Below, in pieces: positions 3,920 to 60,561 of a stretch of DNA of 64,000 bases. Position 1 is the stretch's first letter. Each line of letters opens with the position of its first letter. The stretch spans positions 186,001-250,000 of the forward strand of contig CM068758.1 in assembly GCA_035084275.1 (NCBI GenBank), read 5' to 3'. Source of the DNA: Hydrolagus colliei (taxonomy: Eukaryota). The translations under genes were made by a program, and so were the position numbers. The notes under the pieces are model-generated. The model had not been told where the DNA came from and did not search any database. It saw only the letters and a program-made list of their open reading frames with translations.

Positions 3920-6900
3920 ATGTACAAGGCAGTGTCTCCCGATCGCTCACTGTGGCTAAAGATTGTGACAGTTACTGTCACCATTGGTAAGTCTCTCTCT
4001 GTACTCTGGCTGCACCCCAATTGTTCTCTCACTTCTCTGAAGAGTGAGTTAAGTGAATGGTTCTAACCTAAGGTTTCAGCTGTACACTACAATTTACATT
4101 TTACTGCGCCTTTCAGGTCAGGAGAACATCTCAAAGTTGCTTGTCAACTCTGGCTGGGCTGAGGGGTGGCAGACACACGCAGTGAGGAGGGGAATGATGA
4201 TGGAACGCTCAGTCAAAGTCAAGCAATTACATATTTTTTATATCAATATATTTTTGTGACCCTAAATCTAAATATTATCATTGTCTCAACTTCACTCTTG
4301 TAGTTAATATATGGGACGTGGATATTTCTCCAGAACCCAAATTGTTGGTTGCAAATTGCATGGTATTGGGAAACTGCACAGACCAGTAAAAGGGAAACAC
4401 AATAGTCTAGTAAAATCTCCCAAATTCTTCTACGAGAAACTGTTAAAGCATTGGTTTGATGAGGAGCCAGCGCTGACACAAGCATATGGCATGCGAGGTT
4501 TTGATATTATCTAGATCCGAGGGAAAACTCCCACAAAAACATCTCCTTCAGAGGGTAGAGCAAGGCCTGTGTCATGTCTGGCCAACACACATTTGTGCTA
4601 TCGTCAGGAGAGCTGATTAGAAGAACGGTTGAATGCCAACATTCCATTGAGCGGGTTGCCATTGATGTTCTCAGCCAAAGACACATTCACACCCTAGCAA
4701 ACACATACTCGCTCAGGAACAAACTCCCACCAAGGCTTTTCTGCTCTCCCTTGACCTCTACTAATGTAATACTAATGTAACAACAACAAAATGACATTTG
4801 TAAGCGCCTTTCTGATTGGTGATTCTCACCAATAGACTTGACGACATTGTTCTGTGGTTTGTGTTAATTATTGACATTATTATTATTGTGTGTGTGTGCG
4901 TTTGGTTTAACACATCATCCTAATTTTGTTTTTTTCAGGTTTCTTCCTTGTGCTGACTTGCAGTGCTCAGCCGGTAAGAGTGATTCTAGACCTTCCCTTG
5001 TCCAGCAGAGAGAAGCGCGATTTAAATCTTCCGTGGCTCTGTGTGCTAATGTGGGTGACGTGTTTGAACAGATGGGAGATACGGCCATTCTCTGCCTTAG
5101 CGGCCTGTTTGTTAATGATCCCTTTATACAATAAAAACACCACCCGGTAAACAACAGCAACACCAAATTTCATTTGTGTCAATTCTCATGTTTCTGTTAA
5201 AATCAGGCGTTCGCACTCTCTCTCTATGAGAAACCAGCTTTAGCTCAATGTACTAATATAGTAATGGCTTGCTGGGTTAGCAATATCAATAATAATGCCT
5301 TCTACGTTGAGAGGACGTCTCAAAAATGACTCACAGGGTACGCTGTACATTTGAACGGCCTCAAATAAAACGTGATTTAACAGTTGCGATTGTTTCCCCC
5401 CCCCCCCCCTGCTCTGTTAGGCTTTGTTGAGGAAAGAATCCCAAAGTGCACTCAAAATGCTGGTGAACAGAAGAGAGAAGCGAGCTGGTATGTGTTCAGT
5501 AGCAGTGACCTGGGGTGTGGTCGGACGCTTGTTTGAACGGCAGGGCTGTGGCCTGTTTACCATGACTCTTACAACTTTATCAATCACTCAACCCATGACT
5601 GTTTGTGGTGGGGATGTGCAATTGGCTGCTGCATTCCACCCACAAAATATACAGTTGGGTTCACTTGACAGTACGTCTCCTGAGACGTGTCAACGACGTG
5701 ATAAAACTCCGTATCAAATACTATTATTATTATTATTATTATTATTATTGCCTTTTGAAAATCCAGTCAGGTCTATCCCGCCTGCCACACTCGGTATAGG
5801 CCTCGTCCACTGATCGAGTTTGTTCCACAAGAGACATTGTCCACTCCCTTCAGAAGAGGGCGTTGATGGCATCTGTCTAATGGTCTGAGCCCAGAAACCT
5901 CCAACCAACTCGCTGACCAACACCCAGCCTGATTATCACTTCTGTGCTGTGTGAAGAAACGAACCTCACAGGCACTTTTGGTCTTTCACTTTGGTTTCTC
6001 AGTGAAGGAAACGTTCCAGGAATAGATGTGGTGAAATTGATCCGTCCTCACTCAAACATTTTCTGTGACATTTGAAGTCAGAATGTAAAAGTGATCCTAA
6101 TACTATGCAAAACCTCACTGGGATGACAAACCAACTTCCCGTCTGAGAGTTAGTAATCAGTGAACACTAAGATCCCCAACCTTTTATGCATTTGCTGGTC
6201 TTGCCAGATGCCAGTGATATACTCAACATTCACTTTAGGCCATTTTTGCTGCCTGGCTCCGTTTCCCCACGTCAGAGGTGTGAAGCTCTAACTGAGCCTC
6301 AGGCTAGTTACAATGCAACTCAACTGGTCTTGTTGTGAGGGCCCATTAAAATAATTCGCACCTTTCCTTTGCACAAATATTTTTTAAGAGTTTGTTTTGA
6401 TCCCCATTATACCTTGTGCGGACATGACATGAAAGGTGTTCTATGAAATCGCAGGATCATTATTATGTGGTTATTGTTATTTCATCATGATGAGATTAGC
6501 CCTAATTATACTACAGCAACAAGCACCCACTCTTAAATACTGCGTAAATACCGATTGCATGGACACAGATTGAAAGTGTTGATCAGTAACTTGTGAGGGT
6601 TCCAGAGCTCTGTGAACATGACAGTGAGATACATCACTTCTGCGAAGAGATTATTGTTGGTGCCCCATTAATCGTGTAAAATGAATGTTCTCTTGTGTTC
6701 ACAGTTTGCCAAAGGGGCGTCATAACTCCCCAGATGACCGGCAACTTATTGCTGCCCATCGATTACCCCGTTGCCGATTTAGACCCATGTTTGAGTGATG
6801 AAGTCCTGGTGAACAACCTCACCCAACTTGGAAATTTGGCCTTTAACGTAGACCAACTTCAGGTTCTGAAGAGGAGGTTAACTCAGGTAAACACAGCCTC

Positions 6901-9900
6901 AAAACTACTATGGACCTCAGCGTGGAACGTGATTGTCCGCCCGCAAATACACGGTCAATAAAATGGACTTGGTTGTCCATCGTGTCTGCATCACTGCTGT
7001 CTACACCATCGGCAGACAACAGATCCCAACGTACATCAGTCATGGTCTAGGAAGTGCTTTAGGGGGAACTCATTGACATGTAGAAAGTCTTACATGTAAT
7101 TAGAAGAGTTCAAGTTAAAGCTTAATACATATTTCTTTATAGAATCATAGAATATTGCAGCACAGAAGGAGGCTGTTCAGGCCGGCTCTTTGAAAGACCT
7201 GCCCAATGAGTCCCATTGTCCTGTTCTTTCCCGATAGCCTTGGAAACGTTTCCTTTTCAAGTAAATAACCAATTCCCTTTCGAAAAAGTTAGTATCCATC
7301 CTCGTTCAGGCAAGGCACAGGTTCAGTTACAACTGTGAGTTCTTGCTACACATTCTTGTTTGTGAGTGCGGCTGGAATATTAATCCTTGTGTCTTCCTGG
7401 AACAGTTATATCCCAGTGGGCTGCCACAGGAACAGCTCAATGAGTTGGGTTATATAATCACTGTGTACGGCCCGGAGGATGTCAGCAAGTGGAATATAAC
7501 AGATCCGGACATTCTGGCCTCCGTCCTGCAGAACACCCCCACTCCCGAAATGGTAAGTCTGACACGTGTCTGACGCACTGCGTTTGAAGATTTCATTCAC
7601 AGAGGATCATTGTCGTCTATCTCGCTGGAAATGGGTTTTAATGCAAAATATTCACGTAATATTCACATATAACCGGCAGTCCAGCACAGTGAAGTTACCT
7701 AAATAATAGATCGTTTGTAAGTGAACTGTGTTCACTTAATGTAGGTTTACAGCTACATTATTATCTATATTACTGAAACTTGTTAGTTCAGTGGAGGGAG
7801 AACCGAACATTAATAACGAGAAAAATAACAGTTACTATAAAAGTGAATCCCATTATCTGAATTGAATAGAAAATATACTCGGGTTTTGCTGTTGGTGGGT
7901 GAAAAGGGTAATAAATTAATTGCTCTTTCATCGTATTTTTATTTCAGACGAATATAATTGTTTCAAACTATTTTCGAGGGTCTGGGCTGCTGAACGCGGC
8001 CTCACTGAACGCAATCGGTGGCGATCTGCTGTGCACGACCAGCGAACAGAGACTCAGAACCATCCTTCCCTCCGAACTCAAGTAAGAGTTAAACCATCAA
8101 CATTGTGGTTGTGTTAGAGATTGTCGCTGTGTTTACTGAACACAGCCCCACCTCTCAGCACAGAAATGCAAGGATTATTATATTATTATTATTAGCATCA
8201 TTAATTCCAATAAATTACAACTCTCATAATCATTGTGTTATAGAGATGCCAACCCACTCAATATCACGCTGTGCACCCAGCCCAAGAAAGACATTGTTTA
8301 CGACATCGCAAAGAATGCTTTTCAGGACAGAACGGGCAAACTGAGCGCCAACTACAATCGGATCCGTTCGTATTTGGGTGAGTTTCACTCCAGGCCCTGG
8401 CTTGATGGCGCAATGCAGTGTCGTGGAAGGGAAATTGCTTCAGGAATTACACGATTCGCTGCCGCCGTGAAGCAGTAGTAGTGAGAGACAAGATCTCTCG
8501 GTGGGGAGGGAGCCCGTGCCTCTCTCCACATTTGCTAACCAATCGCTCGCTCAATCGTGTCCGGGTGTCACACGGTAAATTTAAACTTATGGCGTTGGTT
8601 GTGTAACCTTATCGCAGTGTCGTAACTCGGCAGGGTTTGCTGTTTTCCTTCCCCCCCTGTAGGTGGAGCGCCAGCAAGTGATCTGCAGGGTTTAGCCAGA
8701 GACAACGTCAACATGACCGTTGAGACATTTTTGAAACTCAACCCAGCAGAAGTGATTGTACGTACCAAGGGATATAAATGGTGTTTATTAACTTGCGCTC
8801 ACTTTGCGAACCCCCGAGCGGCTTAACTTGCTCCAGGGCCCGTCCAACAAGGCACGAGACATTTTTAAACTACCGGTATATATTCCGTTACTGTTTGTGG
8901 GACACGACTGTGCGAAACTGGCTGCCGTGTCCTGCCCGCGAAAATACAGCCTCAATTGACTTGATGGTGTATTTATTCTATGAAGTATTTTGTGACGTCT
9001 CAATTACTGAATAAGGCGCCGCATCCAATGCAAGGATTGTTATTGTTATTATTATTATGATGATTATTTGATAAATTTTCACGATGATATTCGATGAGAG
9101 GATGTCTCAGACCATGATAGAGGATGTTGCTGATGTTATGTATCGTTGGCCTGGTTTCGCTTTCAGAAACTCTCTGCTCGGGATGTGAGGGACTTGCTCG
9201 GAGTGAACCTTCCCCAACTGAAAGACTACGAATTCGACCCGTTGGTGCAGGTCTGGGTTAGAACCCACAGCCGTGCCGAGGTGCAGAGCCTGGGAATCGG
9301 GCTGAGTGGAGGACAGCCGTCAGCGGAAGATTTTGAACTTGGCCATCACAGTTTTGAAGAAGGTGCGTAGCGCTCGCTCCGTCCATCTTCCTGTGGCTCG
9401 GTGGGTTAGAGCACTTGTCTTGCAAGCTGGGCAGACCAAGCCGGGGAGACCTGTGTTCGAATCCAGGCAGGTCAGGGCGAAACCTTGGGGAAGTTTCCTT
9501 ACTCCACACACACACACACACGTCTAATAATAATCCGTCCAAAAATATATTTTTTTGTGGGCGAATCCACAAATTCGCCCACATACACACAGTCAATTCA
9601 CTTTACAGTATATTCTGTGTGAAGCGCTTTGGGACGTCGATAAGATGTGAAAAGCCGCGATATCAAAAGCCAGGATTATTATTATTATTATTTTCTCTGC
9701 TTTGCGCTGCCACAGAGAGTGGGTGGCAACCACAGCTTTTACACGATGCCCACACAACAAACATACAAACGCGCACACAGTGTATTTGTGTACCAATACA
9801 CAGTCACTACACTCCACGGTAAAGTCCTGTTTGAGTGCTTTCAGAGGCCATTCAGGCCAACATCATCACACACTACACTTAAACGCAAGGATCGTTTCGA

Positions 9901-10258
9901 TGTTGTAACACAGACAGCCAAAAGTATTTAATTTCTAAGCATTTTCAGTCTTAGTGTATAGGTGCCTAACAAATGGTCTCAAAGCCAAACTTGCACATAC
10001 ACACATCACATAATCTTCCATTTACACCTATACACACACGTACACACACCCACACATATGAAATGCACAGCTGTGAATCTTTTCTCAGCATTAGCAAAGC
10101 TGAACAAGTCTCAAAGGCAATTGACAGCGTGTGATTTGGGTTATTTTTATTTTTCAGGCCTCAATTCAGGGCAGAATTCAGCTTCCAGCGAACGTGTGAG
10201 TCTCCAGTCCTCGTTCCTGGTTGGAGTGATAATCGTTGGATTACAGAGAATACTGTAA
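3920..10258 (+). CDS. MSLN: Mesothelin-like GPI-anchored protein, paralogue A (385 aa; signal peptide + short propeptide + furin site + mature mesothelin domain + GPI signal). Coding exons: 3920-3986, 4939-4973, 5421-5487, 6705-6886, 7406-7552, 7948-8081, 8244-8377, 8663-8757, 9167-9362, 10158-10258
   Basis: All junctions are GT-AG with consistent phases (1158 nt). Translation: MYKAVSPDRSLWLKIVTVTVTIGFFLVLTCSAQP ALLRKESQSALKMLVNRREKR AVCQRG...DPCLSDEVL...QLQVLKRRLTQ LYPSGLPQEQLNELGY...PEDVSKWNIT...SYLGGAPASDLQGLARDNVNMTVETFLKLNP...QSLGIGLSGG...FLVGVIIVGLQRIL*. This matches recalled mature human mesothelin motifs (LYPQGYPESVIQHLGY, PEDIRKWNVT, FLGGAPTEDL, NVSMDLATFMKL, LGLGLQGG). Exact orthology (MSLN vs MSLNL) is not resolved. 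Confidence 0.88.
7141..7310 (-). mobile_element. CR1-like LINE 3' end remnant (intron of gene A)
   Basis: agaatcatagaatattgcagcacagaaggaggc...: reverse complement of an ATTCTAT-type CR1 3' tail. Confidence 0.6.
9391..9690 (+). mobile_element. tRNA-derived SINE with L2-like 3' tail
   Basis: A box (tggctcggtgggttagagc), B box (gttcgaatcc), body gcgaaaccttgg...gtttccttactcc, 3' gtgaagcgctttgggacgtc...ggattattatt tail; many homologous copies in the window. Confidence 0.85.
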
Positions 10259-10645
10259 AGGGGAACACAGACAGACAGACAGACACGGCCAGATCTGACC
10301 TCCTGGCTATCAAAACTTAGTGTTGAATGTTAATGTTTGAAATGAAAGTGAAAGTTGAATTAATGAATATAATTGTTAGCAGCATTAACTGAATCCCGTT
10401 TATAGCAATGTTATTTAGACGAGCGAGGACAAGTGAGATTCCTTCACTAGCGGTTGCTAATCAATGTTAGATTATTTTGTTTTATTGCGAGTTTGTACTT
10501 TTCAGGTGGTTGTTAAAGATCCCAATTAATACACAACGAGGGAAAAGGAAAAGAGAGATTTGGTCATTCACTTCACGGCTGTTCGTGGTTCGCTTTGCTT
10601 TGCGCAAAATGGCATTTGTCCACAAAAAACTTCACTACTCAACAG

Positions 10646-11573
10646 CAGGGTCCGTCGATATGGAAATTTTCCGATTAAATATATCGATGGGCTCATATCG
10701 AGATATACCGAAATATCGATATGTTCGGGTTTTTCGTACTGCGCATGCGCGTTCGGCACGCACATTCGGGGCCTATCTTCTCAGGAGTTAAATATCTTTC
10801 TCTCTCTGTCTCTCACTCTCTCCATCTCTGTGTTTTTCTGTCTGTGTCTCTATGTCTCTCTCCCTCTCTCCTCTCTCACATCCCCCTCCATCTCTATCTA
10901 TCTGTATATTATCACATCCACCCCGTCTCTCCCCCCACCCCGTCTCTCCCCCCACCCCGTCTCTCCCCCCACTCCCCCGCTGTCCCTCTCTCGCACCCCC
11001 CCACCCCCGTCGTCTCTCTCCCCCACCACCCCCCCAGCCGTCTCTTTCTCCCACACCCCCCAGCCGTCTCTCTCCCCCCCACAGCCGTCTTTCTTCCCAC
11101 AGCTGTCTCTCTCCCCCTCTCCTCCCCCCCAGCCGTCTCTCTCCCCCTCCCCCCAGCTGTCTCTCTCCCCCTCTCCTCCCCCCCCCCAGCCGTCTCTCTC
11201 CCCCTCTCCCCCCCCCCACAGCTGTCTCTCTCCCCCTCCCCCCAGATCTCTCGCTCCCCCTCACCCCTCCCCAGCAGTCTCTCTCCCCCTCACCACCCAC
11301 CCCCAGCCGTCTCTCTCTCCCCCCCACCCCTTGCATACCTGTATATTGTATTCGAGGACTATGAATACAATATGGCGGCTTTGCACCTCGGTCTGTGCAT
11401 TGTGTATAGAGATGAGCATTCTGGGTCTTGTAGTTCAGTGTGTGGCATCCCGATTATTTACCTCGATATATCGACTTTTCGGTATATCGATATGTTTGAA
11501 ATGCCTATATCGGCGTATCGATATGAAAATTATATCGGGTTTTAGCGATATATCGATATATCGCCGGACCCTA
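10646..11573. mobile_element. Non-autonomous hAT-superfamily DNA transposon with internal C-rich minisatellite
   Basis: 16-bp TIRs CAGGGTCCGTCGATAT / ATATCGCCGGACCCTA (2 mismatches); perfect 8-bp TSD CTCAACAG at 10638-10645 and 11574-11581; subterminal ATATCG/CGATAT repeats. Confidence 0.88.
10795..11330. repeat. CT-rich low-complexity tract and C-rich minisatellite (ccccagccgtctctctcccc-like units)
   Basis: Seen directly; explains the Pro/Ser-rich and Gly-rich spurious ORFs. Confidence 0.9.
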
Positions 11574-11989
11574 CTCAACAGTAATTAGCTAAAAGGCACT
11601 TTGAGACATCTAGACATTGTAGATGCAAAAGCATTTATTACTATTATATTATTGTTGTTATTATTATCTATTTAGGTAATCTACAGGACAACTTTCTCCT
11701 GATAGTCTTGAAGTCAAACCGTTTCCATTTTATGTGTGTTTTTGTTTTGAGGAGTGAAATTGTATTTAAAGCTGCGTTTATAGGTGAGAGGATTGTTGTT
11801 CGTGCAGTTCGGAATGTAGACTAGAATGTGCATCAGAAAAAAATATGAAATTTTGACATTGTTATTTAAGTTAGACTTTTACCTTCAGTCACTGCCTTGC
11901 AGGTGACTTGTGAATAAAAAATAAATGTGTTAATGTGTTATTGAGGCAACGGATGGGACAATTGTTCTTACAGTAAAATTGCCAATTGC

Positions 11990-12570
11990 CAGGCTCCCTG
12001 TCCCGACGAGGATCGACTTCAAGATCCTCACCCTTGTTTTCAAATCCCTCCACTCCTCTGCCCCACCACCCCACCCACCCCCCCACCCACCCCACCTCTC
12101 TGATCTCCTCTCTCCCCAAACCAGCTCCCACTGCCTTCCCTCCTCTGGGTCTGGCCTCCTCCACGTCCCCTCGAATCCTCCGCTCCACCCTCGGCGGCCG
12201 AGCCTTCAGCCACTACCCCCCCGAGGCTCTGGAACTCTCTTCCTCACTCCCTTCCGCTCGCCCCCTCTCTTCCCAGTTTCAGGTCACAGCTGAAGACCTT
12301 TCTCTTCGACCGCGCCTTGGGTCACCTTTCTACCCCTGCCCCTGGCTCCCCCCTCCCTCCCTCTCTCCCCCTGCCCCTGGCTCCCCCCTCCCTCCCTCTC
12401 TCCCCCTGCCCCTGGCTCCCCCCTCCCTCCCTCTCTCCCCCTGCCCCTGGCTCCCCCCTCCCTATCTCTCTGCCCCTGCCCCTGGCTCGGTCCCGGGATC
12501 CGTTATTGTGAAGCGCTCTGAGACGCTGTCTGGCATGGAGGGCGCTATCTAAATTGTTGTTGTTGTTGAT
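11990..12570 (+). mobile_element. L2-clade LINE 3' fragment with internal ~33-bp minisatellite (about 12333-12485)
   Basis: Encodes RLPVPTRIDFKILTLVFKSLH, homologous to the L2 ORF2 C-terminus at 22.9-23.0 kb; ends gtgaagcgctctgagacg...gcgctatctaaa(ttg)n. Confidence 0.85.
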
Positions 12571-12878
12571 GCCAAAGGCGTTATACAAAGGATTGGAGTT
12601 TCGAAGTTTGTAATATCTAGTTGCCAATGGTGGTTGGGTTTCCCAGTTGTCTGTTCATTATTGTAATGATATTTATTTTATTTATTGTGTCACGTTTGTT
12701 TCCCTTTGCCAGCTGAACTATAACAAATCATATATATGTGTGTATATATATATATATATATTTACAATAAAATGATGTATTTTACTGCACAATTCCATTT
12801 GTTTTCACTTGGTTGCTACTTCGTGAGCTTGTTGTGATGAGTCTCAGACAGAGATAAAGCAAACGTACTTTCTCACAG

Positions 12879-13224
12879 AATAATAATAATCCTGGCATTT
12901 GATATCGCGGCTTTTCACATCTTATCGACGTCTCAAAGCGCTTCACAGGACAGACTGTAAAGTGAATTGACTGTATATATATTTGTGGGCGAACCGCGGC
13001 AGCCAATTTCGCACAGCAGCGTTCCCCCCCCCCCCACAAACAATCATGGACTGAAATAACCAATTTTATTATTGTGTGTTTTTTTTTGAGGGATTATTAT
13101 TATTAGGCGTGTGGAGTAAGGAAACTTGCCCAAGGTTTTGCCCTGACCTGACCTGCTTGGATTCGAAAACAGGTCTCCCCAGCTTGCAAGACAAGCGCTC
13201 TAACCACCGAGCCACCGGAGCCCC
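12879..13224 (-). mobile_element. Full-length tRNA-derived SINE
   Basis: Reverse complement of the same family as 9391-9690, with tRNA head and (ATT)n tail. Confidence 0.85.
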
Positions 13225-13299
13225 AATCTATAGAATGCTATGGTACAAAGGTGTTGGCCAAGTCCAGAACTACGCACAGGGTTGGTCAGTATCACTGTC

Positions 13300-13710
13300 A
13301 CTCCTCCTGTGGTGAAGTTGTGCAAACATTCATTCAACACCTTGAAAATACTTAAAAAATTGTGGTTAGAGAATTCTTTAGAGGACTTGGGTTTGATTCC
13401 CAAGTGGAAGAAAACCTTAGGCAAGTTTCCTTACTCAACGCGCCTCTGTTTACCCAGCAGTAGGTAGGAACCCGCTTGTTAGTCAATTGACGGGAGTAAT
13501 AAAAACCTCAATAAAAATAATCTGCAATCATTCAATCTACAATCACTGAATCTACAATCACTCAATCTATGACTGTGTGGGGGATATAGCTGCGCGCAAT
13601 CGGCTGCCAGGTTTCACCCACGAAATACATAGTCATTCCACTATACGGTACATCCTGTGAAGCGCTTTGAGACGTCTCAACAGCATAATACGACGCTATA
13701 TCAAAGGCCA
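13300..13710 (+). mobile_element. Degenerate older SINE copy
   Basis: aaaccttaggcaagtttccttactc and gtgaagcgctttgagacgtc motifs. Confidence 0.55.
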
Positions 13711-14479
13711 CAAAACTCTGCGCCCTCAGCTACACATTCCCAACCAGAGCCGCTGCGCTTTCCCGGCTCCAACGGGAACTATTTCCTTGTGCCGTTCTGT
13801 AGGAATGAAGTTCAATAGATACTAGGACAAGGTTCTGGTGTAGAGACCAGCAGGAGAATGGGGATAGACCTAGAGGGCAACAGCACAGACTTAACAAAAA
13901 CACAAAATATCACGGGCTGGGAATTGGAAACAAACACAGGAAATGGCTGGGAGCATTCAGCGATGGTGCATGCTAAAGAAAATGGGGGTGGGTGAGGAGG
14001 GAAGGGAGGGAGGGAAGGGAGGGAGGGAGGGGACGTCCTCCTGACGTGGAAGGCTCTCTCTCTGTAAGTTTAATTTTGTTGTTGTGTTGTTATCTCACAA
14101 ATTGTCAGCGTCAAATGCTCTTCTCGATTCCACCCCTCGGAAACATTTGAATAGAAAACACAATGAAGGTCAAAAAGAAGGAGTGTCGGAAAGGCAGATT
14201 GATTCATGTCAGATGTGATTCTGTAGAATTCAACAAAGGGTAGTCAGTATAAAGGCAGTGATGACTGAGATTTTGTCGTCATATGGATGCATTTTAAATG
14301 CCACGGTTGGTTCCAAGAATATGCAGTGTAGCCTTTGTGACGTCTCGACGATGTAAATCAGCGTTACATTAAATAAAAGGATTCTTGTTGTTATTATTTC
14401 TGATGGTGGCATTTTCATTGTGAACGTTTCAGGGAATGTGACCCTTTGAATCCAGGGTCAGAGTTTAGAGCTGGAAAAT

Positions 14480-15202
14480 NNNNNNNNNNNNNNNNNNNNN
14501 NNNNNNNNNNNNNNNNNNNNNNNNNNNNNNNNNNNNNNNNNNNNNNNNNNNNNNNNNNNNNNNNNNNNNNNNNNNNNNNNNNNNNNNNNNNNNNNNNNNN
14601 NNNNNNNNNNNNNNNNNNNNNNNNNNNNNNNNNNNNNNNNNNNNNNNNNNNNNNNNNNNNNNNNNNNNNNNNNNNNNNNNNNNNNNNNNNNNNNNNNNNN
14701 NNNNNNNNNNNNNNNNNNNNNNNNNNNNNNNNNNNNNNNNNNNNNNNNNNNNNNNNNNNNNNNNNNNNNNNNNNNNNNNNNNNNNNNNNNNNNNNNNNNN
14801 NNNNNNNNNNNNNNNNNNNNNNNNNNNNNNNNNNNNNNNNNNNNNNNNNNNNNNNNNNNNNNNNNNNNNNNNNNNNNNNNNNNNNNNNNNNNNNNNNNNN
14901 NNNNNNNNNNNNNNNNNNNNNNNNNNNNNNNNNNNNNNNNNNNNNNNNNNNNNNNNNNNNNNNNNNNNNNNNNNNNNNNNNNNNNNNNNNNNNNNNNNNN
15001 NNNNNNNNNNNNNNNNNNNNNNNNNNNNNNNNNNNNNNNNNNNNNNNNNNNNNNNNNNNNNNNNNNNNNNNNNNNNNNNNNNNNNNNNNNNNNNNNNNNN
15101 NNNNNNNNNNNNNNNNNNNNNNNNNNNNNNNNNNNNNNNNNNNNNNNNNNNNNNNNNNNNNNNNNNNNNNNNNNNNNNNNNNNNNNNNNNNNNNNNNNNN
15201 NN
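14480..15202. other. Assembly gap (N run)
   Basis: 723 Ns. Confidence 1.
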
Positions 15203-15505: not shown

Positions 15506-17179
15506 AAATGATACACATTGATCGCAAGATCAATCTGGATGAAGAAGTCCCTTTGGCCGATCTGATACCATCCATCCAAACACCCCCCACCACACCCCCA
15601 ATCACTGCATCGACTGCTTTGTGGACGATTCCCAGTGTCCTGGCCTTGAGGACCTTTCCTGGCACCTGTTCCGGGCGTTGAGAAGCCTCCGTGTAAAGAA
15701 AGGCTTCCTGGTGTCTGTCCTGAAATTGGCCTTTACACTAAACTCTAAACCCATCTGCTCTTGTTCCACTGCTTTCCACACATCCTAAAGTATCGATCTG
15801 CGTTTCAATCCCATTTACAATTTTGTTTTACATAAAAACATAATAATTTGTGGAGCGATAGGGGACTAAGGCTCTCTGAGGGCCCCTCGTTTGATGTGAC
15901 AATCAGAATCTGTTTTATTTTTCACCCCCACTTTTTGTGTTGCTACGGTTACAAGAGGGTCAATTCACAAATTGATCCGTAACTGAAGGATTGGCGCAGG
16001 GACGTGTGGGCTCCTCTCCTCTCCTCCCCCCGGCTCATCTCCAGCCAAAGGCCAGGGCATACACTCTCTCTGGCTTCCAACGGCTTCCAGAGCTGAGAGA
16101 GGTACGCGGGATCAGCCTCAAACAAAACCTTCAGGATTCTCCAGCTACTCGTCAATATATGCAGATCATGTAATAGATTGCTGAGAGCAAAGGGCATTCA
16201 TTCCAGAAACTACTGTCCGTTCCTGGTGAGTTCAGAGAGGGATATCTCATGACTAATACAATAGGGTTTACCTGGCTCCTCACACCTGGAAATCACACAA
16301 TGAAATGCCTATATTGTAATATAATACAATACTTCTAAATCATAACTTCATGCCGGGCAAAGTCTCAAGAATGTCTCAATTCTGAATAGTTTCAGTGTTT
16401 TGAGAAAAATGTATGGAATGATAACTGGGTAATAAATTTAATTATACTCAATCTGCGAGGAAAAATGTCATCTGGGTCTAGATTATTTTAATGACTACTC
16501 CCACAGTAATAAAAAATAATTGTCTTCGCATTTGATATACACGTCTTCAAGACGTCTCAAAGCGCTTCACAGAATATACTGTAAAGTGAATTGACTGTAC
16601 ATTTGTGGATGCACTGGGGGTTGAAAACATAGTCAAAGGTAGCTGTTGACTTCTAGTTCTTCAAAGAACTTACTGAAAAATGGCTTGAGAATGAAGGTCC
16701 CGCTTAACAAAGCCAAGAAAATAATAATAATCCTTGCAAAATAATATACCAGTAATGCCTCATTGTATCACTGACATGTCTTAAAGTGGAATATACTGCA
16801 TTCTCCAATGGAAATTCCAAACTGTTTCTCCGTTCCAGATGTTGACAGGACCCTGTGGATACCCAGATGTGCATTTCCAGACGAGGCTTTGGGTTTCCAT
16901 GGTGTCCACTTCTGCCCATTGTCCACCTTCCATTTCCCTGACTCAAGCATCTGGATGGCATTCACATTGTCCTTCTGTTGTCAGTTGTGACTCCACCCAA
17001 ATTGTCTATCATCTTCATTTAGCTGCTCTTTATTCTGAGTTTATTATCCCGCCGGTTGACAAAAATAGCCCGAGGCTTGGCACACAACCATAATGCCTTT
17101 CTAAGGCTAAGAGAGAACAAGTTTAATTTGAGTTTGAATCAATCTATTGCGTCACTTTGAGCCACACCTGTGTTTGAGG

Positions 17180-17273
17180 TATAAAATCTCAGCCCGATTA
17201 AGCGCAACAGTAATTCACACATTGGGACTTATCCTCCTCTCATCTCCAACTGCTCAACACAAACCATCAACAA
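17180..17273 (+). promoter_or_regulatory. Putative TATA box and non-coding first exon of mesothelin-like gene B
   Basis: TATAAAA at 17180-17186; candidate donor GTAGGT at 17274; acceptor ttttcacag at 18169 precedes the ATG exon. Confidence 0.45.
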
Positions 17274-18246
17274 GTAGGTGCAGCTTTTTGCTTTGCTCTT
17301 TGGTTGCTTCACTGTCTCTGCTTCTTGTTTGAACGGCCCGCGTGCAGCCGGTGCGGGATTCGCTTCCGACAAAAAAAGTTGGAGGAAACACTGCAGTGCG
17401 GGAATCGGGAGAGAATCTGAACAGAAAAAACCCCGCGATGGCTCCTCCGCAGGTGCAGAGGACAATCGGGAAATAGGCTTTGGTGTCCATATCGATGTTC
17501 TGTGGTACCACAAGGCGGTTGGGAACTGAGTGGTTCAGACGTCTGTGCGATGTGTTCGCCGCACTGATCTGATGTTGAATGAACACGCTGTGGGTTTTGC
17601 TTTTGCGTGGAGTTTCGTGTTGTCTCTGGTGTGGTCCCTTGTGAAAGCCAAGCTTGCTCTGTGGTATTTTGGGCATCGCGCTGAAATTGCTGTTGTTTCC
17701 GTATTCCGCGACGTGCTGTTTCCAATTACAACAACAACTTGGATTTATGTATAGCGCCCCCCCCCCCCCCCACCCCCCCACGTTTGAATGGCGCCTCAGA
17801 GCGCTTCCAATTAGTGTGGATATCAGGAGAGAAGAGGGGCGGGGAGGTGGGGGAGAGAGGGGAGGGGTGGGCGGGGAGGGAGGGGGGATGTTACCTCACA
17901 CACCCCGAAGCTGACATTCCAGAGCGGGGCTGGGGGAGACGGCGGCTGAAACATTCACGACCAAACTTTAAAACTTCAGACGGGATTAAACAGCCTTTAG
18001 AAAGAACCCTGCAATAAACGGAATGCAAAACCCCCTCGTTCCTTTAGACATGTCCTTGACAGTGTGTTGGGCCGCCCTTACCTTTGTTTACTCAGCTCCC
18101 CTCCCACCAGCTCAGGCTCCCCTCCCACCAGCTCCCCTCATGACAGAAGATATTGCTTTATTTTCACAGCATAACTCACTCTGTGGATTGGAACAGAAAC
18201 CGCAGCAGTGAACCAGAAATCAGCCTCACTCATTTGGACCTCTAGG

Positions 18247-21200
18247 ATGATGATCTTAACACTTACTCTGGCCTTTGGTAAGTCCCCCTCTCCAGTGAAC
18301 AGTAATAACTGCAGCCGAACGCAGATAACAGGAAATGGGAAGGGGCTTAACCACCCCCTCCCCACTCCCAACCCCATGAATATTATGACAATTAACTTCC
18401 CCCACAACCAACCTGATCCAATTTAAACTTCAATGTAAAATGGAAATGGTTGTTAGATCTATCAAAGTTCTCAGATCCGCACGATTGCCTGAGATTTTGA
18501 AGATGTCCCTGATGTGAGATTAGTAATTTTTTTTGGTGGGGGAAAGGGGAGATGGCAGGAGGAACAGAGAGACGGCGACATGGACTTTCAGAAGACACCA
18601 GTATAAAGTTTGGCGGACATTAACTATACAGACTGTATCTGACAGGATCGAGTCCAGCACTGTTGCTCAACGCCACCCTCCACAGAGAAGTGACTAAAAT
18701 TCCAATTATCTATAGGAATCTCACGGCTATATTGACTTATTTTCTTTAATCTAATGCATTCTTCTGTTGTGTTGTTGCAGGTTTGTGCTTGTTTGCCACA
18801 TGCAAAGCTCAGACGGTAAGAGTTGGCTCGGTTACAGTAAATTTAACCCAACAAATAAACCAGACAGATCTTGATGCTCTCTATATAACATAAGAAGAAG
18901 GAGCAGGACTAGGCCATTCAGCCCCTCGAGCCTGCCCCGGCACTTAATAGGATTGTGGCTGATCTGCTAATCTAACTCCATTTACCTGCCCTTTCCCCAT
19001 ATCCGTTAATCCCTTTAGTTTTTAAAAATCTGTTGATCTGAGTCTTGAATATATATAACCTCACTGAATCTGAAGGGAACTCAAGGTGTTAGCATCTGGG
19101 AGGGGACGGGAGGTTTGGTTCTGTGAAATTAATGAATACAATGTTTGTATAAACACCNNNNNNNNNNNNNNNNNNNNNNNNNNNNNNNNNNNNNNNNNNN
19201 NNNNNNNNNNNNNNNNNNNNNNNNNNNNNNNNNNNNNNNNNNNNNNNNNNNNNNNNNNNNNNNNNNNNNNNNNNNNNNNNNNNNNNNNNGACTGGGTTTG
19301 GCAGAAGGCAGGCAGCAAGCACAGCACTGATGTCCGCTGCTGCTGCCGCTGCCCGGGCGGCCGAGGCCGAAGCCCCATCACCCGCTCCCCCCAACCCCCG
19401 CCGGACACTGTCCCACTGACAGCGCGCCGGTCGCCCCCCCTGTTTACTGTATTTCCGAGGCTCAGAATTCCTTGTACCTGCGTATAGGGCGCACCCCCAA
19501 CTTTCGAGATCTTCCCACGTGCAAAAAAGTGCGCCTTATACGCGGGTATTTACGGTACCCGGTGTGGTGTCTATAAGTGCACATTTTACCTGAAATACAT
19601 TTACTGTTATTTACATGGGCTACATATGAAATGCAAGGATTATTATTATTATATTATTCACGTTTACTCCGCAGGTCCGTTTGTTAAGGGACGGAGATTT
19701 GTCCCGGCAGGAGAGAGCGGCGGGAAACATCAATGTGACATCAAGTAAGTTCTGTAACTGTGTCTTATTGCTGCCGAGCTGGATGACTGTGCATTCTGTT
19801 GAGTAATGCAGCTCAGGAACAATAGATCCCTCATTAGGGCCAACACATAATATCACAAGAAAAGCGGTGAGTGAATAAGCCTCTCATCCTTCCAGAGTGC
19901 CCACTCCTCCCGTCCGTTCTACGCCCAGATCATTGGGTTTATTTATCTCTGCAACTGTTCCGAGCGTAGGAAGTCGCAAAGGAATGAGAACCACAACAAA
20001 ATGACATTGTTAGAGCGCCTCTCAGAGTCGGGAGGACGTCCCAAAGCGCTGAGAGAGAACTTAGACACAACTCCTCACGGCCAAAATGGTGGAAAATTGT
20101 TTCCGTTTCCTGAGCATATTGATCTGGTCAATGAGCTGGTCACTCAGTCAGTGTTTTATTGTGTTCGCAGATTGTTCAACCACAGTGATAACACCTGAAA
20201 TGACGGGGATCATCTTGTTGCCAATCGAATATACTGCGGCGGAGTTGGACGCGTGTGTGAGTGACGAGGTGCTGAGGAACAACCTTACGGAACTCGGAAA
20301 TCTAGCCTTTAGCACGAGTCAACTACTCGTTCTGAAAAACAGGTTGGATAAGGTAAATAAACGTGCTTTTTCTGTCAGAAATGAGAATCTGGTATCTCTG
20401 GGCGATTCTCCCGGGGACAGTAACTAACCGTTATAGTCTCCTTTACTGGGAGAAACATCAGCAGCAGGTCAAATCCTGGGGAACTATCAACGTGTTAAAT
20501 TCTGATTGCAATTTGGTTTCTCAAACAAACCTCTCCAAACATCTTCTTGCCAGCTGACAAAGCTTGGGGGGGATAACAACAATCCTGCCATTCAGTTCAG
20601 CGTTTGGTCACCTCTAAACATCTCAAAGCTGACCGTATCCTAACCCAGGACACAACTGATCTGAAAAGCAAGGTGTGCGGAATATAGTGTAGAAATACGA
20701 CACTCAATTAAAAGTGGATGTGGCGTTTGCCTTCATAATAATACTGTAGCATTTGTTTCATTTCAAATTAATTATATCTTAGTAAAGACCTCCGAGAAGT
20801 TTAATTTGGGTTAAAAAAAACGTGTGTGTTTCTCTCACACAGCTGTACCCGAGTGGGATAGACGAATCCGTGATTAGTAGACTGGGGTTTATAATCACAG
20901 CATACTCACCTGAAGACATAACCAAGTGGAAAATCACCAACCCCAACACGCTGGCTGCTGTCATCCGAAACTTGCCGACTTCTGACCTGGTAAAGAGACT
21001 CGCAGAAAAAAACACCTACATCTGGTCTCACCCTTTTCTTTGTCTCAGCCTTGATAGGAGAACACGGCCAGAGTGAGATACCACCCATTGGCTTTGGGGG
21101 TCTCAGCCTGAATTATTGGGGGGCTGTGGGTTCGCCACTATATATCCTATTTAACGCAGCCCTAGATAGATTTATTTTGTTTAGAATAATTATAATAATC

Positions 21201-24200
21201 CTTGCATTTGATACGCCTTGTCACCTCATCGAGACGTCTCAAATTGCTTCACAGAATGTACATTTGATGGGTGGAACGCAGAACCGAATTGTACACGGCA
21301 GTTCCAACAAACGCTCATGGACTGAGTAATTTTTTATTAGTATTATTATTATTGAAAGCGATTCAATCTACTTCCTGCTCGGTAAACAGAGCAGCGTGGA
21401 ATTAGGAAATTTGCCCAAGGTTTCGCCCTGCCCGTGAATCGAACCCACTGGCTTGGGAGAGGAGCTCGCTAACCGATATCCTACTGGACTCCCATCACAT
21501 TATAGACTGTCAACTTCTCACGTTCTCCTCATCCCCCCAGCTTTTCTGACCCCACGGTTAGTGTTCCAATACTAACACAGCGTTTGTTATGTGTAGACTG
21601 GCATCGTCGTCTCAAATTATTATCAGGGACCTGGGGAGTTGAATGTGACTGCACTAAACGCGATCGGTGGTCCATTGCTCTGCACTGCCACGGAAGCCAA
21701 GCTCAGAACCATTCCGGCCTATGATCTGAGGTGAGTGTTTGTACATTTATTTGAAGAACAAGACCAAACTACCTTACTCCAGTTGTACAAAGATCATCTT
21801 AGCCCTGGGGGGGGGGGGGGGGGGGTGGCAGCAGTGAGGGACAAGTGGATAGCTTTCCCTGCCCGAGGCTGACCTGCCTGAGGTTGGGGGGGTGTCCTGG
21901 TCCACGTTGCCTTTGACAATTTGGGGCTGAGAGAGTTTTGGGGAAAAGGGCTTATCTGAGGTGGGGAGAGAGCCCTGGTTCCCAAATGATTGGGCCTAAT
22001 GGGTGGGGTAAGCAACCTGACCTCACTCACGGCTCTGAGGGTGCCTCAGGGTTGTCTGACCATCTGTCCGCACATTATTATCCAGAGTGAGGATGAGTTG
22101 GGGGGAGATCTTGTTCAGCGGAGCACGGGGCAAAGCAGCTGTGAAAGGATGAATGTGAACCATACTGTTAACAACAGAAAACCATGGTATTAAAGTCAAC
22201 GGTAAATCCTTACAGGAACGCGGAGCCACTGGACCTCTCCACCTGCACTCAGGCAAAGAAAAACATTCTCTACAACACTGTAAAGGACCAGGACCGCATC
22301 GGGAACCTGCAAAACTCTTACGCACAGAGCAAGCCGTACCTGGGTAAGCTTCACTACGCCAATGGCTGGCTGTGCAGCTAGCTGACTGGCTGGCTGGCTG
22401 TGCGGCTAGCTGTGTGGCTGTGTATGTGGTTGGTTGTGTGGTTAGCTGGCTGGCTGGGTGGCTCCCAATTTGTGACAGAGTATTGTAGAAATGCATTGTG
22501 TTTTTTTTAAAGACGTTTGACTGACACAACTTAAGGATCTTTGCTTCTGACACGAAGTTAACAACAACAACAACAACGACAATTTACATTTATAGAGCAC
22601 CTTTCACGTCGGGAGGACGTCCCAAGGCGCTGAACAAGAGGCGTGTGACCCGAGCTGGGAGGGGAGTGTTTGGGAAGGGGTGAAACACGAAGGGGAGGTA
22701 AAAGAGTTCGGGGTGGAACAAAAGGCACGATCGAAGAGGAAAGTCTTCAAATCGGCCTTGAAAGAGGAAAGTGAAGAGGCAAAACGGAGGGATTGAGGGA
22801 TGGCATTCCATAAGGTGGAAGCGGAGAAACTGAAGGCCCGGCCTCCGATGGTGGGGCGGTTTGGGCGGGGGGCTTGGAGCAGGCCAAGTCCTGTTGAACG
22901 GAGGGTCCGGGTGGGCGTGTAGGGGGAGAGTAGATCGGTTAGGTAGGATGGGGCAAGGCCGTGTAAGGCCTTGTAGGTGAGGACGAGGATCTTAAACTCG
23001 ATCCTCTGGAGGATGGGGAGCCAGTGGAGACGGGCGAGGGTGGGGGTTATGTGGTTGCGGAGGCGGGTGCGGGATAGTACACGGGCTGCAGAGTTTTGGA
23101 TGGCCTGCAGCCTATGAATGGAGGAACTGGGGAGGCCGACTAGGAGAGAATTTCTGTAATCCAGCCGTGAGGTGATGTACGCGTGCACGAGTGTTTCGGC
23201 AGAGCGGGGGGTAAGATAGTTGCGGAGCCTGGCAATGTTGCGCAGATGGAAATAGGCTGTGCCGGTCAAGGCGCGGATGTGGGGGAGGAAGGAAAGTTTT
23301 TGATCGAACATGATGCCGAGGTTCCTGATTGGCTTTGTGAGGTGGAGAGTGCAGCCTTGGATGTTGAGGCTGGCAGCGCCCGATGTGCGGAGGCGCTGGC
23401 TTGAGCCAATCAGGAGGGCCTCGGTCTTACTCACGTTCAATTGCAAAAAGTTGTCCCTCGTCCACGATTCGATGTCGGACAGACATGCTGTCAGAACATC
23501 GATCGTCTGGGGGTTGAGGGATGACGCAGAAAGGTACAACTGGGTGTCATCCGCATACATGTGGAAATTTACCCCATGTCTGCGGATGACGTCGCCCAGA
23601 GGGAGCGTGTAAAGGGTGAAAAGGAGGGGGCCGAGGACAGAGCCCTGAGGGACGCCGTGGGAAACTGTGCGGGGGTTTGAAGAAAAGCCATTGGAAGAAA
23701 CAAAATGTAAACGGTGGGTCAGATAGGAATGGAACCATTCAAGGACTGTGCCTTGAAGGTTGAGGTGGGAGGAAAGACGTTGGAGGAGGATGGTGTGATC
23801 GACTGTGTCGAACGCAGCAGACAGGAGGACGAGGAGGCAGAGGGAGCCCTAGTCACAGGCGGTTAGGATGTCGTTTGTGACCTTAACCAGGGCAGTTTCT
23901 GTGCTGTGGATAGGGCGGAAACCTGATTGCAGGGGTTCAAGAAGTGAGTGATTTGAAAGGAAAGAGCGGAGCTGGGAGGCAACCACTCTTTCAAGGACCT
24001 TGGATAGAAACGGGAGGTTGGAGATGGGTCGATAACTTGATGGTTGCGACGCATCAAGGGAGGGTTTCTTCAGGATAGGGGTGATGGTGGCTGTTTTAAG
24101 GGAGGTAGGGACGGTTCCTGAGGAGAGGGAAAGGTTAATGGTGTCAGAAATGAGCGGGGCTAACAAATGGAGCTGGGTGCGGAGGAGGGGGGTGGGGATG

Positions 24201-25850
24201 GGGTCCAATGAGCACGTGGTGGGTTTCATGGAGGTGATTGTTTTTGTGACTGAAAGCGGGGTGGTGGGGTTGAAAGTGTGAAATGGGGGGTGAGTAGGGG
24301 TTGAGGTAACTGATGAGGGCGTGGAGGTGGAGGAGTGGTGAGGGGAGGAAACCGCAGAGCAGATTTTCTCAATTTTGGACTCGAGGAAATCCAGCATCTC
24401 CTTGCAACGAACGTTTGAGGAGAGGATCTGTGAGGTGAGGCGGTGGGGGGGGGGGGCGGAGGAGCTGGTTGGTGGTGGCGAAGAGGAGGCGGTGGTTAAT
24501 AATATATATTTTTAAAAATTGTATTCAGGTTACACACAGTTAATTTAAAAACCGATGGCGTTGTGTATACCCTAGCATAGTGTAAATAACATTATTTCCC
24601 CCAAAGGTGGTGCGCAAGCAGCCGATTTGAAGATTTTAGCTGGAGATAACGTCAACATGGATTTCGAGACCTTCAAGAAACTCAACCCAGAAGAACTGGT
24701 TGTACGTATCAATGGAAGAATGTGGTGTTTATAAATTTAATTAGCGCTGCCTTTGTGACTTGAGCAGCTTCTCTCGCAGCCACACACACACACACACACA
24801 CACAGACAGACACACACAAGCTGTACATCACACAAAACAGCTGTTCAGGTACGGTCAACGCTTAAGTTCAGTTGCCACCTGTTAATATTATATATTCCGT
24901 AACTGTTTTTAGGAGACCACTGTGTGGAACTGGCTGCCTCATTTTGCCTACAAAATACGACGTCAATTCACTTGTCAGTGTTTTCCACGAAGGGTTTTGT
25001 GACATCTCAATTACTGAATAAGGATTAGTATTATTACTATTATTATTATCGTGAAGATTATTATCATTTGATCAATTTTCATGACGATATGCGAGGTATG
25101 AGAAGTAATATCTCAGACCATGAAAGAGGATGCTGCTGATGTAATGTATCGTTGGCCTGGTTTGTCTTTCAGAAACTCTCTGCTCAGGAACTGAAGAACT
25201 TGCTCGGGGTCAACCTTCCCCAACTGAAAGCCAACGAAGCCGACCCTGTGGTGCAGGCCTGGGTCAGAACCCACAGCGCAGCCGAGGTGCAGAGCCTGGG
25301 CGTGGGACTCTCTGGGGGGAAGCCACCAGCGCAGAGCTTTGAATCCGGCCATCATGATTTTAAAGAAGGTGCGTAGCGCTCGCTCATGTCCGTTTGGTTT
25401 GTTGCTTTACACAACTTTACACGAGACACGCACTCGGACACCTCGGGTCTGATATCTGCTCGAATGCATCAAACGCACTTGATCACACGCAGCAGCAACA
25501 ACAACAACAACAACAACTTAGACAACTTGTACTACGGTCTAAAATACCGTAGAACAAGTTGCTGGAGACTCTGAGAGACTATTTATCAAAAACTAAGCTT
25601 CTAAACTGTGACAATTATTGCATCGTAAATCAAGCTAGACTTGTCTGTGCATTGGTTTGTTATCTGAAGCGCTTTGGGACACTTCTCCCGACTTAATATT
25701 GAAATGCCGCTGAAGGGAAAACGGTTCAATGAATGGTGTGTTTGTTTTGTTCCAGTTTCAGGAACAAGTTCAGCTTCGAGCAACTACTTTGGTCTCCTGC
25801 TCTGTGTCCTCGTCAGTGTGACAACTATCGCCACACAACGTTTGCTGTAA
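18247..25850 (+). CDS. MSLN: Mesothelin-like GPI-anchored protein, paralogue B (370 aa). Coding exons: 18247-18277, 18781-18815, 19675-19744, 20171-20352, 20843-20989, 21597-21730, 22216-22343, 24607-24701, 25173-25368, 25756-25850
   Basis: GT-AG junctions with the same phases as A and identical lengths for six exons (35, 182, 147, 134, 95, 196 nt); 1113 nt in frame. Translation: MMILTLTLAFGLCLFATCKAQT VRLLRDGDLSRQERAAGNINVTS NCSTTVITPEMT...LYPSGIDESVISRLGF...PEDITKWKIT...YLGGAQAADL...NVNMDFETFKKLNP...QSLGVGLSGG...SASSNYFGLLLCVLVSVTTIATQRLL*. Confidence 0.88.
18888..19100 (-). mobile_element. CR1-like LINE 3' end remnant
   Basis: aacataagaa...ggagcagga...ggccattcagcccctcgagcctgc...gctgatct, resembling a recalled chondrichthyan CR1/HER1-type 3' UTR in reverse. 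Confidence 0.6.
19158..19289. other. Assembly gap (N run)
   Basis: 132 Ns. Confidence 1.
19290..19557. mobile_element. Probable right end of a TA-target (Tc1/mariner/pogo-like) non-autonomous DNA transposon
   Basis: CpG-rich segment ending gcgtatagggcgcacc...gtgcgccttatacgcgggtatttacgg-TA; the matching left TIR is not visible (may lie in the gap). Confidence 0.4.
22561..24497 (-). mobile_element. L2-clade LINE, 5'-truncated (~1.9 kb), in the intron between coding exons 7 and 8 of gene B
   Basis: ORFs 23849-24397 and 22604-23560 are in one frame, split by a single TAG. Motifs: YRPISNLPFLSKVLERVV, LQSGFR, STETAL, GVPQGSVLGP, YADDTQLYLS, SRLDY, LHWLP. (TTG)n 3' tail at 22561. Confidence 0.95.
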
Positions 25851-35100: not shown

Positions 35101-35199
35101 GTCCCCCCCGTCCGTCCGTCCCCCTGTGCCCCCACCCCCGGCTCCCACCCCAACAATTATTTTCTTAAACCTGCAATTGCATTCTTGAAGACTTGAAGT

Positions 35200-48620: not shown

Positions 48621-60561
<11,941 letters not shown>

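What the first reader, a model, noticed from the sequence alone, without database searches (positions are those of the whole stretch)
3920..25850. Tandem pair of 'mini-mesothelins' lacking the MPF domain but keeping a furin-cleaved propeptide
Seen: both genes splice cleanly as signal peptide (2 exons), one 67-70-nt exon carrying a basic motif (A: NRREKR; B: SRQER), the mature mesothelin domain with its four Cys, and a GPI signal. The intron between the signal-peptide and furin exons is only 447 nt in A. In B it is 859 nt, mostly repeats plus a 132-nt gap. Neither leaves room for the multi-exon MPF region. Established: mammalian MSLN is a ~620-aa precursor cleaved by furin into secreted MPF and GPI-anchored mesothelin, and its relatives (MSLNL, otoancorin, stereocilin) are longer still. 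Inference: these genes are a compact ~370-385-aa architecture in which MPF is replaced by a ~20-aa propeptide. It is either an ancestral minimal form or a lineage-specific deletion followed by duplication. Furin processing appears to be retained without any MPF cargo.
Basis: partly seen in the sequence, partly recalled or inferred. Interest (0 to 1): 0.85.

Follow-up and report, generated by a model that had tools for sequence, protein, structure and literature searches.

The report
Short mesothelin genes of cartilaginous fishes
This chimaera-like fish has two neighbouring genes for a shortened form of the cell-surface protein mesothelin that lacks the large front half known from humans; the same short form is already annotated across sharks, rays and chimaeras, likely arose by loss from a longer gene, and only one of the two copies keeps a proper protease cutting site.

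Summary
The gene models are right. A (385 aa) and B (370 aa) each have ten coding exons, GT-AG introns and no stops. They match only the mature half of the Mesothelin family, and the MPF-like exons of a giant paralogue on the same contig hit nothing in their introns or 40 kb upstream.

The form is not unusual. A and B are orthologues of an annotated Callorhinchus milii pair, and 374-382-aa 'mesothelin-like' models exist in 15 named cartilaginous fishes. Three short unnamed contigs encode the whole form.

The short genes form one clade (100/98) and are probably derived, not ancestral. An R-X-K/R-R site is kept in A and in 22 of 24 relatives. B lacks it and carries N-glycosylation sequons there instead. 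A lungfish model looks like an independent MPF loss (AU p=0.009).

My paper searches found no description of the short form. Function is inferred, and no RNA run holding this window was listed.

The parts
2316..2434 (+). Gene A: TATA-like box (2316) and putative non-coding first exon ending at a GT donor (2435); inferred
   Evidence: a CACACCT..TATAAA layout is shared with gene B; no transcript data
3920..3986 (+). Gene A coding exon 1, signal peptide part 1 (acceptor at 3874)
4939..4973 (+). Gene A exon 2, signal peptide part 2; cleavage after Ala32 inferred
   Evidence: hydropathy; conserved in relatives
5421..5487 (+). Gene A exon 3, about 23-aa propeptide with consensus R52-E-K-R55 (5472-5483)
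6705..9362 (+). Gene A exons 4-9 (6705-6886, 7406-7552, 7948-8081, 8244-8377, 8663-8757, 9167-9362), mature mesothelin solenoid with Cys 58/85/195/221 and Tyr77 (human Y318)
10158..10258 (+). Gene A exon 10, Ser-rich spacer and hydrophobic tail (GPI signal inferred), stop codon
17180..17273 (+). Gene B: TATA-like box (17180) and putative non-coding first exon ending at a GT donor (17274); inferred
18247..18277 (+). Gene B coding exon 1 (acceptor at 18170). The codon matching the C. milii start is GTG at 18208, so the first ATG lies 13 codons later
18781..18815 (+). Gene B exon 2, signal peptide part 2; cleavage after Ala20 inferred
19675..19744 (+). Gene B exon 3, short pro-segment with non-consensus R33-Q-E-R36 (19705-19716), followed by sequons at N42 and N46
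20171..25368 (+). Gene B exons 4-9 (20171-20352, 20843-20989, 21597-21730, 22216-22343, 24607-24701, 25173-25368), mature mesothelin solenoid with Cys 47/74/184/210
25756..25850 (+). Gene B exon 10, GPI-type tail (inferred) and stop; AATAAA at 25950

Best explanation
A and B are intact, tandemly duplicated members of a chondrichthyan-wide subfamily of short mesothelin genes that encode only a signal peptide, a pro-segment of about 20 residues, the mature mesothelin solenoid and a predicted GPI signal, and that likely arose by loss of the MPF region from a long ancestor. Inferred mechanism: the protein enters the ER, loses its signal peptide, forms the two mesothelin disulfides and is GPI-anchored. 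In A a furin-type convertase likely trims the pro-segment in the Golgi to give a mature N-terminus like human E296. The surface protein likely tethers a mucin or matrix glycoprotein through its N-terminal subdomain, as human mesothelin binds MUC16. B likely escapes canonical furin cleavage, because its site is degenerate and glycosylation sequons sit next to the first Cys.
For: Shown: clean ten-exon ORFs and purifying selection. Pfam hits fall only in the mature half. The 1428-aa unit of the giant paralogue hits the window only with residues 1162-1424 at E<=0.12; the other hits there have E>=0.84 and lie outside both genes. Orthologues: A is 74% identical to XP_007904321.2 and B 64.5% to XP_007904320.1. 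Three unnamed Logan contigs of 1450-1706 nt each carry a complete 375-aa ORF, which implies spliced transcripts in a skate-like relative. All 10 short sequences form one clade at 100/98, inside a chondrichthyan group at 99/98. The C. milii orthologue of A folds at mean pLDDT 79 and all 9 Foldseek hits at E<=0.001 are human mesothelin. The four Cys are present in 49 of 49 domains and the Y318-equivalent Tyr in 47 of 49. Literature: disulfides and the N-terminal 64-residue CA125 site (PMC10035497, passages); Y318 (PMC11646052, passages).
Against: No RNA or protein data exist for these two genes. Cleavage, GPI anchoring and ligand binding are untested. The conserved Tyr may be structural, and no shark MUC16-like partner was looked for. 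Furin is not essential even for human mesothelin processing (PMC13383088, letter read). The tree is unrooted and lacks otoancorin, stereocilin, teleosts and agnathans; gene conversion could pull chondrichthyan paralogues together. I could not show that the pro-segment descends from the last MPF exon: 1 of 14 comparisons reached p<0.05, about what chance gives. The N-terminal profile did not match long-form N-termini (E>=0.42).
Confidence: 0.68

Rival explanations
1. The pro-segment is a working minimal MPF: it caps or chaperones the N-terminal ligand-binding subdomain until a convertase removes it, so the basic site is kept for activation rather than for cargo release.
For: The consensus site is kept in 22 of 24 short sequences and in A, across sharks, rays and chimaeras. 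The human ligand site is the first 64 mature residues (PMC10035497). Engineered MPF-less human mesothelin reached the surface but failed to rescue tumour growth, which the authors ascribed to improper processing (PMC11646052, passages). The lungfish MPF-less model also keeps a consensus site.
Against: The pro-segment is poorly conserved apart from the basic motif and is modelled at pLDDT<50 (residues 26-55). The B lineage and one Heptranchias copy have lost the consensus. Many of the 24 sequences are near-copies, so they are not independent.
Confidence: 0.2
2. The short form is the ancestral minimal mesothelin, and MPF was added later in long-form lineages.
For: Short forms occur in chondrichthyans and, as a tandem two-domain model, in a lungfish. 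The tree is unrooted.
Against: Otoancorin and stereocilin align with human precursor residues 68-502, MPF included (PMC2628672, supplement legend). MPF-bearing forms occur in this genome, sharks, rays, amphibians, reptiles and birds. A single clade of shark short forms plus lungfish is rejected (AU p=0.009).
Confidence: 0.08
3. The N-terminal hydrophobic stretch is an uncleaved signal anchor, so the precursor is held at both ends and convertase cleavage frees its N-terminal end.
For: A and its relatives have a long N-terminal segment of about 30 residues, and the model shows one helix at residues 9-36 (low confidence). It would explain a conserved site with no cargo.
Against: A small-residue-then-Gln signal-peptidase context is conserved in most aligned relatives. 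B has a short, ordinary 20-residue signal and no consensus site.
Confidence: 0.03
4. The gene models are incomplete or non-functional: MPF exons are hidden, or the pair are 3' fragments of the giant gene.
For: Two N runs (14480-15202, 19158-19289) cannot be read, and there are no transcript data for these two genes.
Against: The MPF-like exons of the giant unit span at least 1.9 kb, more than either N run. A has no N in its introns. The same architecture appears in 15 species and on transcript-sized contigs, and dN/dS is about 0.26.
Confidence: 0.01

Closest known systems
Callorhinchus milii 'mesothelin-like protein' pair, XP_007904321.2 (381 aa) and XP_007904320.1 (382 aa)
   Same: One-to-one orthologues of A and B (tree support 99/98 and 100/98; 74% and 64.5% identity). 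Same architecture; both are listed on a 16.8-Mb contig; consensus site only in the A-type copy.
   Different: B here has lost the upstream ATG (GTG at 18208) and has a second sequon before the first Cys. The C. milii pair are far more alike in the 3' part (93 of 98 residues against 67 of 97 here).
Elasmobranch 374-379-aa 'mesothelin-like proteins' (e.g. Rhincodon XP_020368115.2, Heterodontus XP_067912917.1, Carcharodon XP_041061836.1)
   Same: Signal, short pro-segment, R-X-K/R-R site, mature domain and hydrophobic tail; one clade with A and B.
   Different: Separate duplications in each lineage; about 45-51% identical (whale shark) to the window proteins. They are database annotations only; no functional description was found.
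Human mesothelin (MSLN; Pfam PF06060; PDB 7UED, 8FSL, 8CXC)
   Same: Mature solenoid (phmmer E 3e-43 for the C. milii orthologue of A; Foldseek E 2e-15), Cys pairs equivalent to C302/C326 and C442/C468, Y318 equivalent, N388-equivalent sequon in A, basic site before the mature domain, hydrophobic tail.
   Different: No MPF of about 250 aa. B lacks the consensus site and the N388-equivalent sequon. One-to-one orthology with MSLN as against MSLNL is not resolved.
Giant multi-module mesothelin-like proteins of chondrichthyans (Rhincodon XP_048465576.1, 4700 aa; Stegostoma XP_059510198.1, 7881 aa; G000:C25 about 406-506 kb)
   Same: Same exon phases and near-identical exon sizes over the mature domain, including a phase 0-to-1 exon before the first Cys exon. 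Some modules carry a sequon in place of the cut site, as B does.
   Different: They keep MPF-like and further N-terminal regions in modules of about 1430 aa.
Lungfish XP_043945664.1 (Protopterus annectens, 675 aa)
   Same: Signal, short pro-segment, consensus basic site, no MPF, hydrophobic tail.
   Different: Two mature domains in tandem; not in the shark short clade (AU p=0.009), so likely convergent. It is a single predicted model on long branches.

Membership tests
Mesothelin family (PF06060) | Profile match over the curated cut-off | tested here: met
   Single exons reach 32.2 (A), 35.3 and 27.0 (B) bits against a cut-off of 25.8; the orthologue of B scores 156.9 bits over profile 318-586
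Mesothelin family (PF06060) | ARM/HEAT-like helical solenoid matching solved mesothelin | tested here: met
   Model of the C. milii orthologue of A, not of A itself; 9 of 9 hits at E<=0.001 are mesothelin
Mesothelin family (PF06060) | Two Cys pairs (human C302/C326, C442/C468) | tested here: met
   Positions align; disulfide bonding itself is inferred
Canonical MSLN precursor | N-terminal MPF region | tested here: not met
   No hit to PF06060 1-295 or to MPF-like exons of the paralogue in either gene or 40 kb upstream
Canonical MSLN precursor | R-X-K/R-R site before the mature domain, gene A | tested here: met
   R52-E-K-R55; cleavage itself untested
Canonical MSLN precursor | R-X-K/R-R site before the mature domain, gene B | tested here: not met
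   Only R33-Q-E-R36, ten residues before the first Cys; the C. milii orthologue has no consensus either
Canonical MSLN precursor | GPI anchor | tested here: inconclusive
   Ser-rich spacer and hydrophobic tail by hydropathy; no predictor or assay
Canonical MSLN precursor | MUC16/CA125 binding | not testable with these tools
   Y318 equivalent present in A, B and 47 of 49 domains; binding needs an assay
Canonical MSLN precursor | One-to-one orthology with mammalian MSLN | tested here: inconclusive
   Chondrichthyan genes group together (99/98); their place relative to MSLN and MSLNL is unstarred and unrooted
Chondrichthyan short mesothelin-like subfamily | About 370-385 aa, signal + short pro-segment + one mature domain + tail, inside the short clade | tested here: met
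Otoancorin / stereocilin | Long N-terminal regions and PF21058/PF28491 matches | tested here: not met
   Exons and the orthologue of B hit PF06060 only; length 370-385 aa

The most novel reading that the evidence does not exclude
Vertebrates have shrunk the MPF half of mesothelin to a roughly 20-residue cleavable cap at least twice (cartilaginous fishes, lungfish). The cap and its convertase site are the part of MPF that matters: they gate or chaperone the ligand-binding N-terminus. Gene B would be the natural uncut, glycan-capped counterpart, so A and B form a ready-made pair for testing what MPF and precursor cleavage are for.
Probability: 0.2. Interest if true: 0.65.

Novelty: new variant of a known kind. 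Interest (0 to 1): 0.35.

Why it matters
The normal function of mesothelin, a major cancer target, and of its MPF half is unclear, and engineered MPF-less human constructs behave poorly (PMC11646052). A naturally MPF-less subfamily kept across sharks, rays and chimaeras suggests the mature domain can work without MPF. It also suggests the cleavage site is under selection for a reason other than releasing MPF. It supplies a natural short leader to test on human mesothelin. The value is moderate: the proteins are already in RefSeq under automatic names, the fold and family are known, and nothing functional is shown here.

Tried and rejected
RNA evidence: no RNA holder was listed for window:3800-10500; the one row is of unknown kind and may be the source assembly. 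It is not used as evidence either way, and no reads were laid.

A word-based search with exon 9 against longer proteins found nothing at E<=0.001 among 170 candidates, a sensitivity failure.

The profile search for bony-fish short forms (27 hits, lengths 153-669) returned 13 chondrichthyan and 14 bird or reptile records and no teleost at all, so it says nothing about teleosts.

Descent of the pro-segment from the last MPF exon was not shown (1 of 14 at p<0.05). Shared signal exons with long forms were not shown. The 5' end of the giant paralogue was not found in C25:370001-406152 and is probably in the N run at 406153-406352.

Candidate AG..GT exons in introns 1-3 of A (15 weak ones; none in B) have no family similarity and were rejected.

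each held a mis-set exon boundary, corrected. The careful mixture-model tree did not finish (one search is the quick tree). Nine of 58 domain rows were dropped there as partial or redundant, and one search used 29 of the remaining 49.

The ESM Atlas look-up only repeated the family name. Literature: ten searches found no paper describing the short form; the library lacks most subscription journals. One catshark semen proteome lists a 'mesothelin-like protein' A0A401PMK1 in a table (PMC11083954, one passage; supplement searched, no hit). Whether it is the short or the long form is unknown, so it is a lead only.
Full report
Observation. Reading the window and splicing by coordinates gives two intact ten-exon genes on the + strand: A, 3920-10258, 385 aa, and B, 18247-25850, 370 aa. 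All 18 introns are GT-AG and intron phases match between the genes. They share 202 of 386 aligned columns. Each has a hydrophobic N-terminus spread over two exons, a 67- or 70-nt third exon, six exons of mature domain with four Cys, and a Ser-rich spacer with a hydrophobic tail. Eight of 12 exons scanned hit Pfam Mesothelin PF06060, all within profile positions 319-586 of 624. Exon 5 of A hits human mesothelin structures. dN/dS between A and B over 278 mature codons is about 0.26, with dS 1.1, so partly saturated. Each gene has a TATA-like box and a plausible non-coding first exon just upstream (inferred).

Is MPF really absent? The genome holds nine matches to exon 4, all on this contig. Two are A and B. 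Seven belong to one giant gene at C25 about 406-506 kb, whose 32-exon unit reads as 1428 aa without a stop and contains MPF-like sequence. This gave a same-genome probe for MPF. Against C25:146001-250000 it hits only the mature exons of A and B; three other hits at E>=0.84 lie outside both genes. The two N runs (723 and 132 nt) are too short for MPF-like exons that span at least 1.9 kb in the paralogue. The architecture is therefore real.

Is it unusual? No, not among cartilaginous fishes. The exon search of representatives returned a 382-aa protein, Callorhinchus milii XP_007904320.1. Searching with it and with a wider profile gave 374-382-aa 'mesothelin-like' models in 15 named species: C. 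milii, ten sharks (Rhincodon, Heterodontus, Cetorhinus, Carcharodon, Pristiophorus, Stegostoma, Hemiscyllium, two Chiloscyllium, Heptranchias) and four batoids (Hemitrygon, Narcine, Pristis, Amblyraja). A is 74% identical to XP_007904321.2 and B 64.5% to XP_007904320.1, so the window comes from a holocephalan other than C. milii (inference). Three unnamed Logan contigs of 1450, 1665 and 1706 nt each encode a complete 375-aa short form and cluster with a Leucoraja protein. An unbroken ORF of a ten-exon gene on such a contig implies a spliced transcript (inference). No teleost record surfaced at all, so bony fishes are untested apart from one lungfish model of 675 aa with signal, short pro-segment, consensus site and two mature domains.

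Origin. In a careful LG+G4 tree of 29 mature domains (29 of the 49 rows of the quick tree, where 9 of 58 partial or redundant rows were dropped), the 10 short sequences form one clade at 100/98. That clade sits in a chondrichthyan group (99/98) with the modules of the giant genes. A pairs with one C. milii copy (99/98) and B with the other (100/98), and the four holocephalan genes group apart from elasmobranch ones (100/99). The A/B duplication thus falls within holocephalans, before the split from Callorhinchus, unless conversion distorts it. Conversion is likely at the 3' end: intron 8 plus exon 9 are 77% alike over 515 nt, dS drops from 1.8 to 0.5, and the C. milii pair share 93 of 98 residues there. 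Holding lungfish and shark short forms together is rejected (AU p=0.009; long branches are a caveat). The tree is unrooted. The direction of change rests on the published alignment of otoancorin and stereocilin to human precursor residues 68-502, MPF included (PMC2628672; abstract, first part and passages read), and on MPF-bearing genes in sharks, amphibians, reptiles and birds. Loss is therefore the more parsimonious reading. I could not show how it happened: exon 3 has the same phases (0 to 1) as the last MPF exon of long forms, but sequence similarity outside the basic motif was at chance level, and the N-terminal profile did not match long forms.

The cut site. R-X-K/R-R occurs in the first 75 residues of 22 of 24 full-length short sequences examined (truncated models and alternative isoforms were left out, and many rows are close relatives), and in A (R52-R55, two residues before the first Cys). 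It fails for B: R33-Q-E-R36 has Glu at P2 and lies ten residues from the Cys, with sequons at N42 and N46 between them. The C. milii orthologue also lacks the consensus and keeps a sequon at the Cys. Several modules of the giant genes show the same swap of cut site for sequon; an earlier scan note (e1-9271608) pointed me to this parallel. Human processing persists without furin (PMC13383088, letter read), so B could still be trimmed by another protease.

Likely working. The C. milii orthologue of A, folded with 14 relatives, gives a helical solenoid at mean pLDDT 79 with an unresolved pro-segment; all 9 Foldseek hits at E<=0.001 are human mesothelin. By alignment to 7UED the Cys match C302/C326 and C442/C468, the disulfides of the crystal structures (PMC10035497, passages). 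Tyr77 matches Y318, needed for MUC16 binding (PMC11646052, passages), and is present in 47 of 49 domains. I therefore commit to a GPI-anchored surface tether for mucin or matrix glycoproteins, trimmed by a convertase in A and probably not in B. The anatomy and conservation are shown; secretion, anchoring, cleavage and binding are inferred. The bolder rival is that the pro-segment is a working cap or chaperone. It draws on the retained site and on the failure of engineered MPF-less human mesothelin to rescue tumour growth (PMC11646052), but the segment is poorly conserved and the site is lost in the B lineage.

Novelty. The family, fold and orthologues are known and annotated. Ten literature searches found no description of the MPF-less subfamily, within a library that lacks most subscription journals. 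A 2026 review (PMC13080647, passages) gave the human precursor layout.

Noticed in passing
G000:C25:406353-506070 (loci L010-L020): Giant mesothelin-family gene: 11,901-bp units 99.94-100% identical including introns, each a 32-exon, 1428-aa stop-free module with MPF-like and mature parts, followed by two diverged modules and a GPI-type tail. The 5' end runs into an N run at 406153-406352. Already noted by the scan.
   Followed up: partly
window 8877-9379 and 24889-25385: Intron 8 and exon 9 are 77% alike between A and B over 515 nt while other introns are not alignable apart from dispersed repeats; likely gene conversion, stronger in the C. milii pair.
   Followed up: partly
window 18208-18249: The start codon used by the C. 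milii orthologue is GTG here; the in-frame ATG lies 13 codons downstream, shortening the signal's n-region.
   Followed up: yes
window 35197-36354 (+): Single-exon rhodopsin-family GPCR (PF00001 E 2e-51); it resembles urotensin-II receptors (name recalled, not tested).
   Followed up: no
window about 49569-57300 (-): Exons of a HECT ubiquitin ligase (PF00632); resembles SMURF1 (name recalled, not tested).
   Followed up: no
window about 22900-24420 (-): LINE-like reverse-transcriptase remnant inside intron 7 of B, accounting for its 2263-nt length (read from the sequence; not searched).
   Followed up: no
G000:C25 about 388600-389000 (locus L023): Exon with a RING-between-RING-type Cys/His pattern upstream of the giant gene; resembles RNF216 (name recalled, not tested).
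   Followed up: no
protein P0003 (XP_043945664.1, lungfish): Predicted MPF-less protein with two tandem mature mesothelin domains behind one consensus basic site; likely an independent MPF loss.
   Followed up: partly
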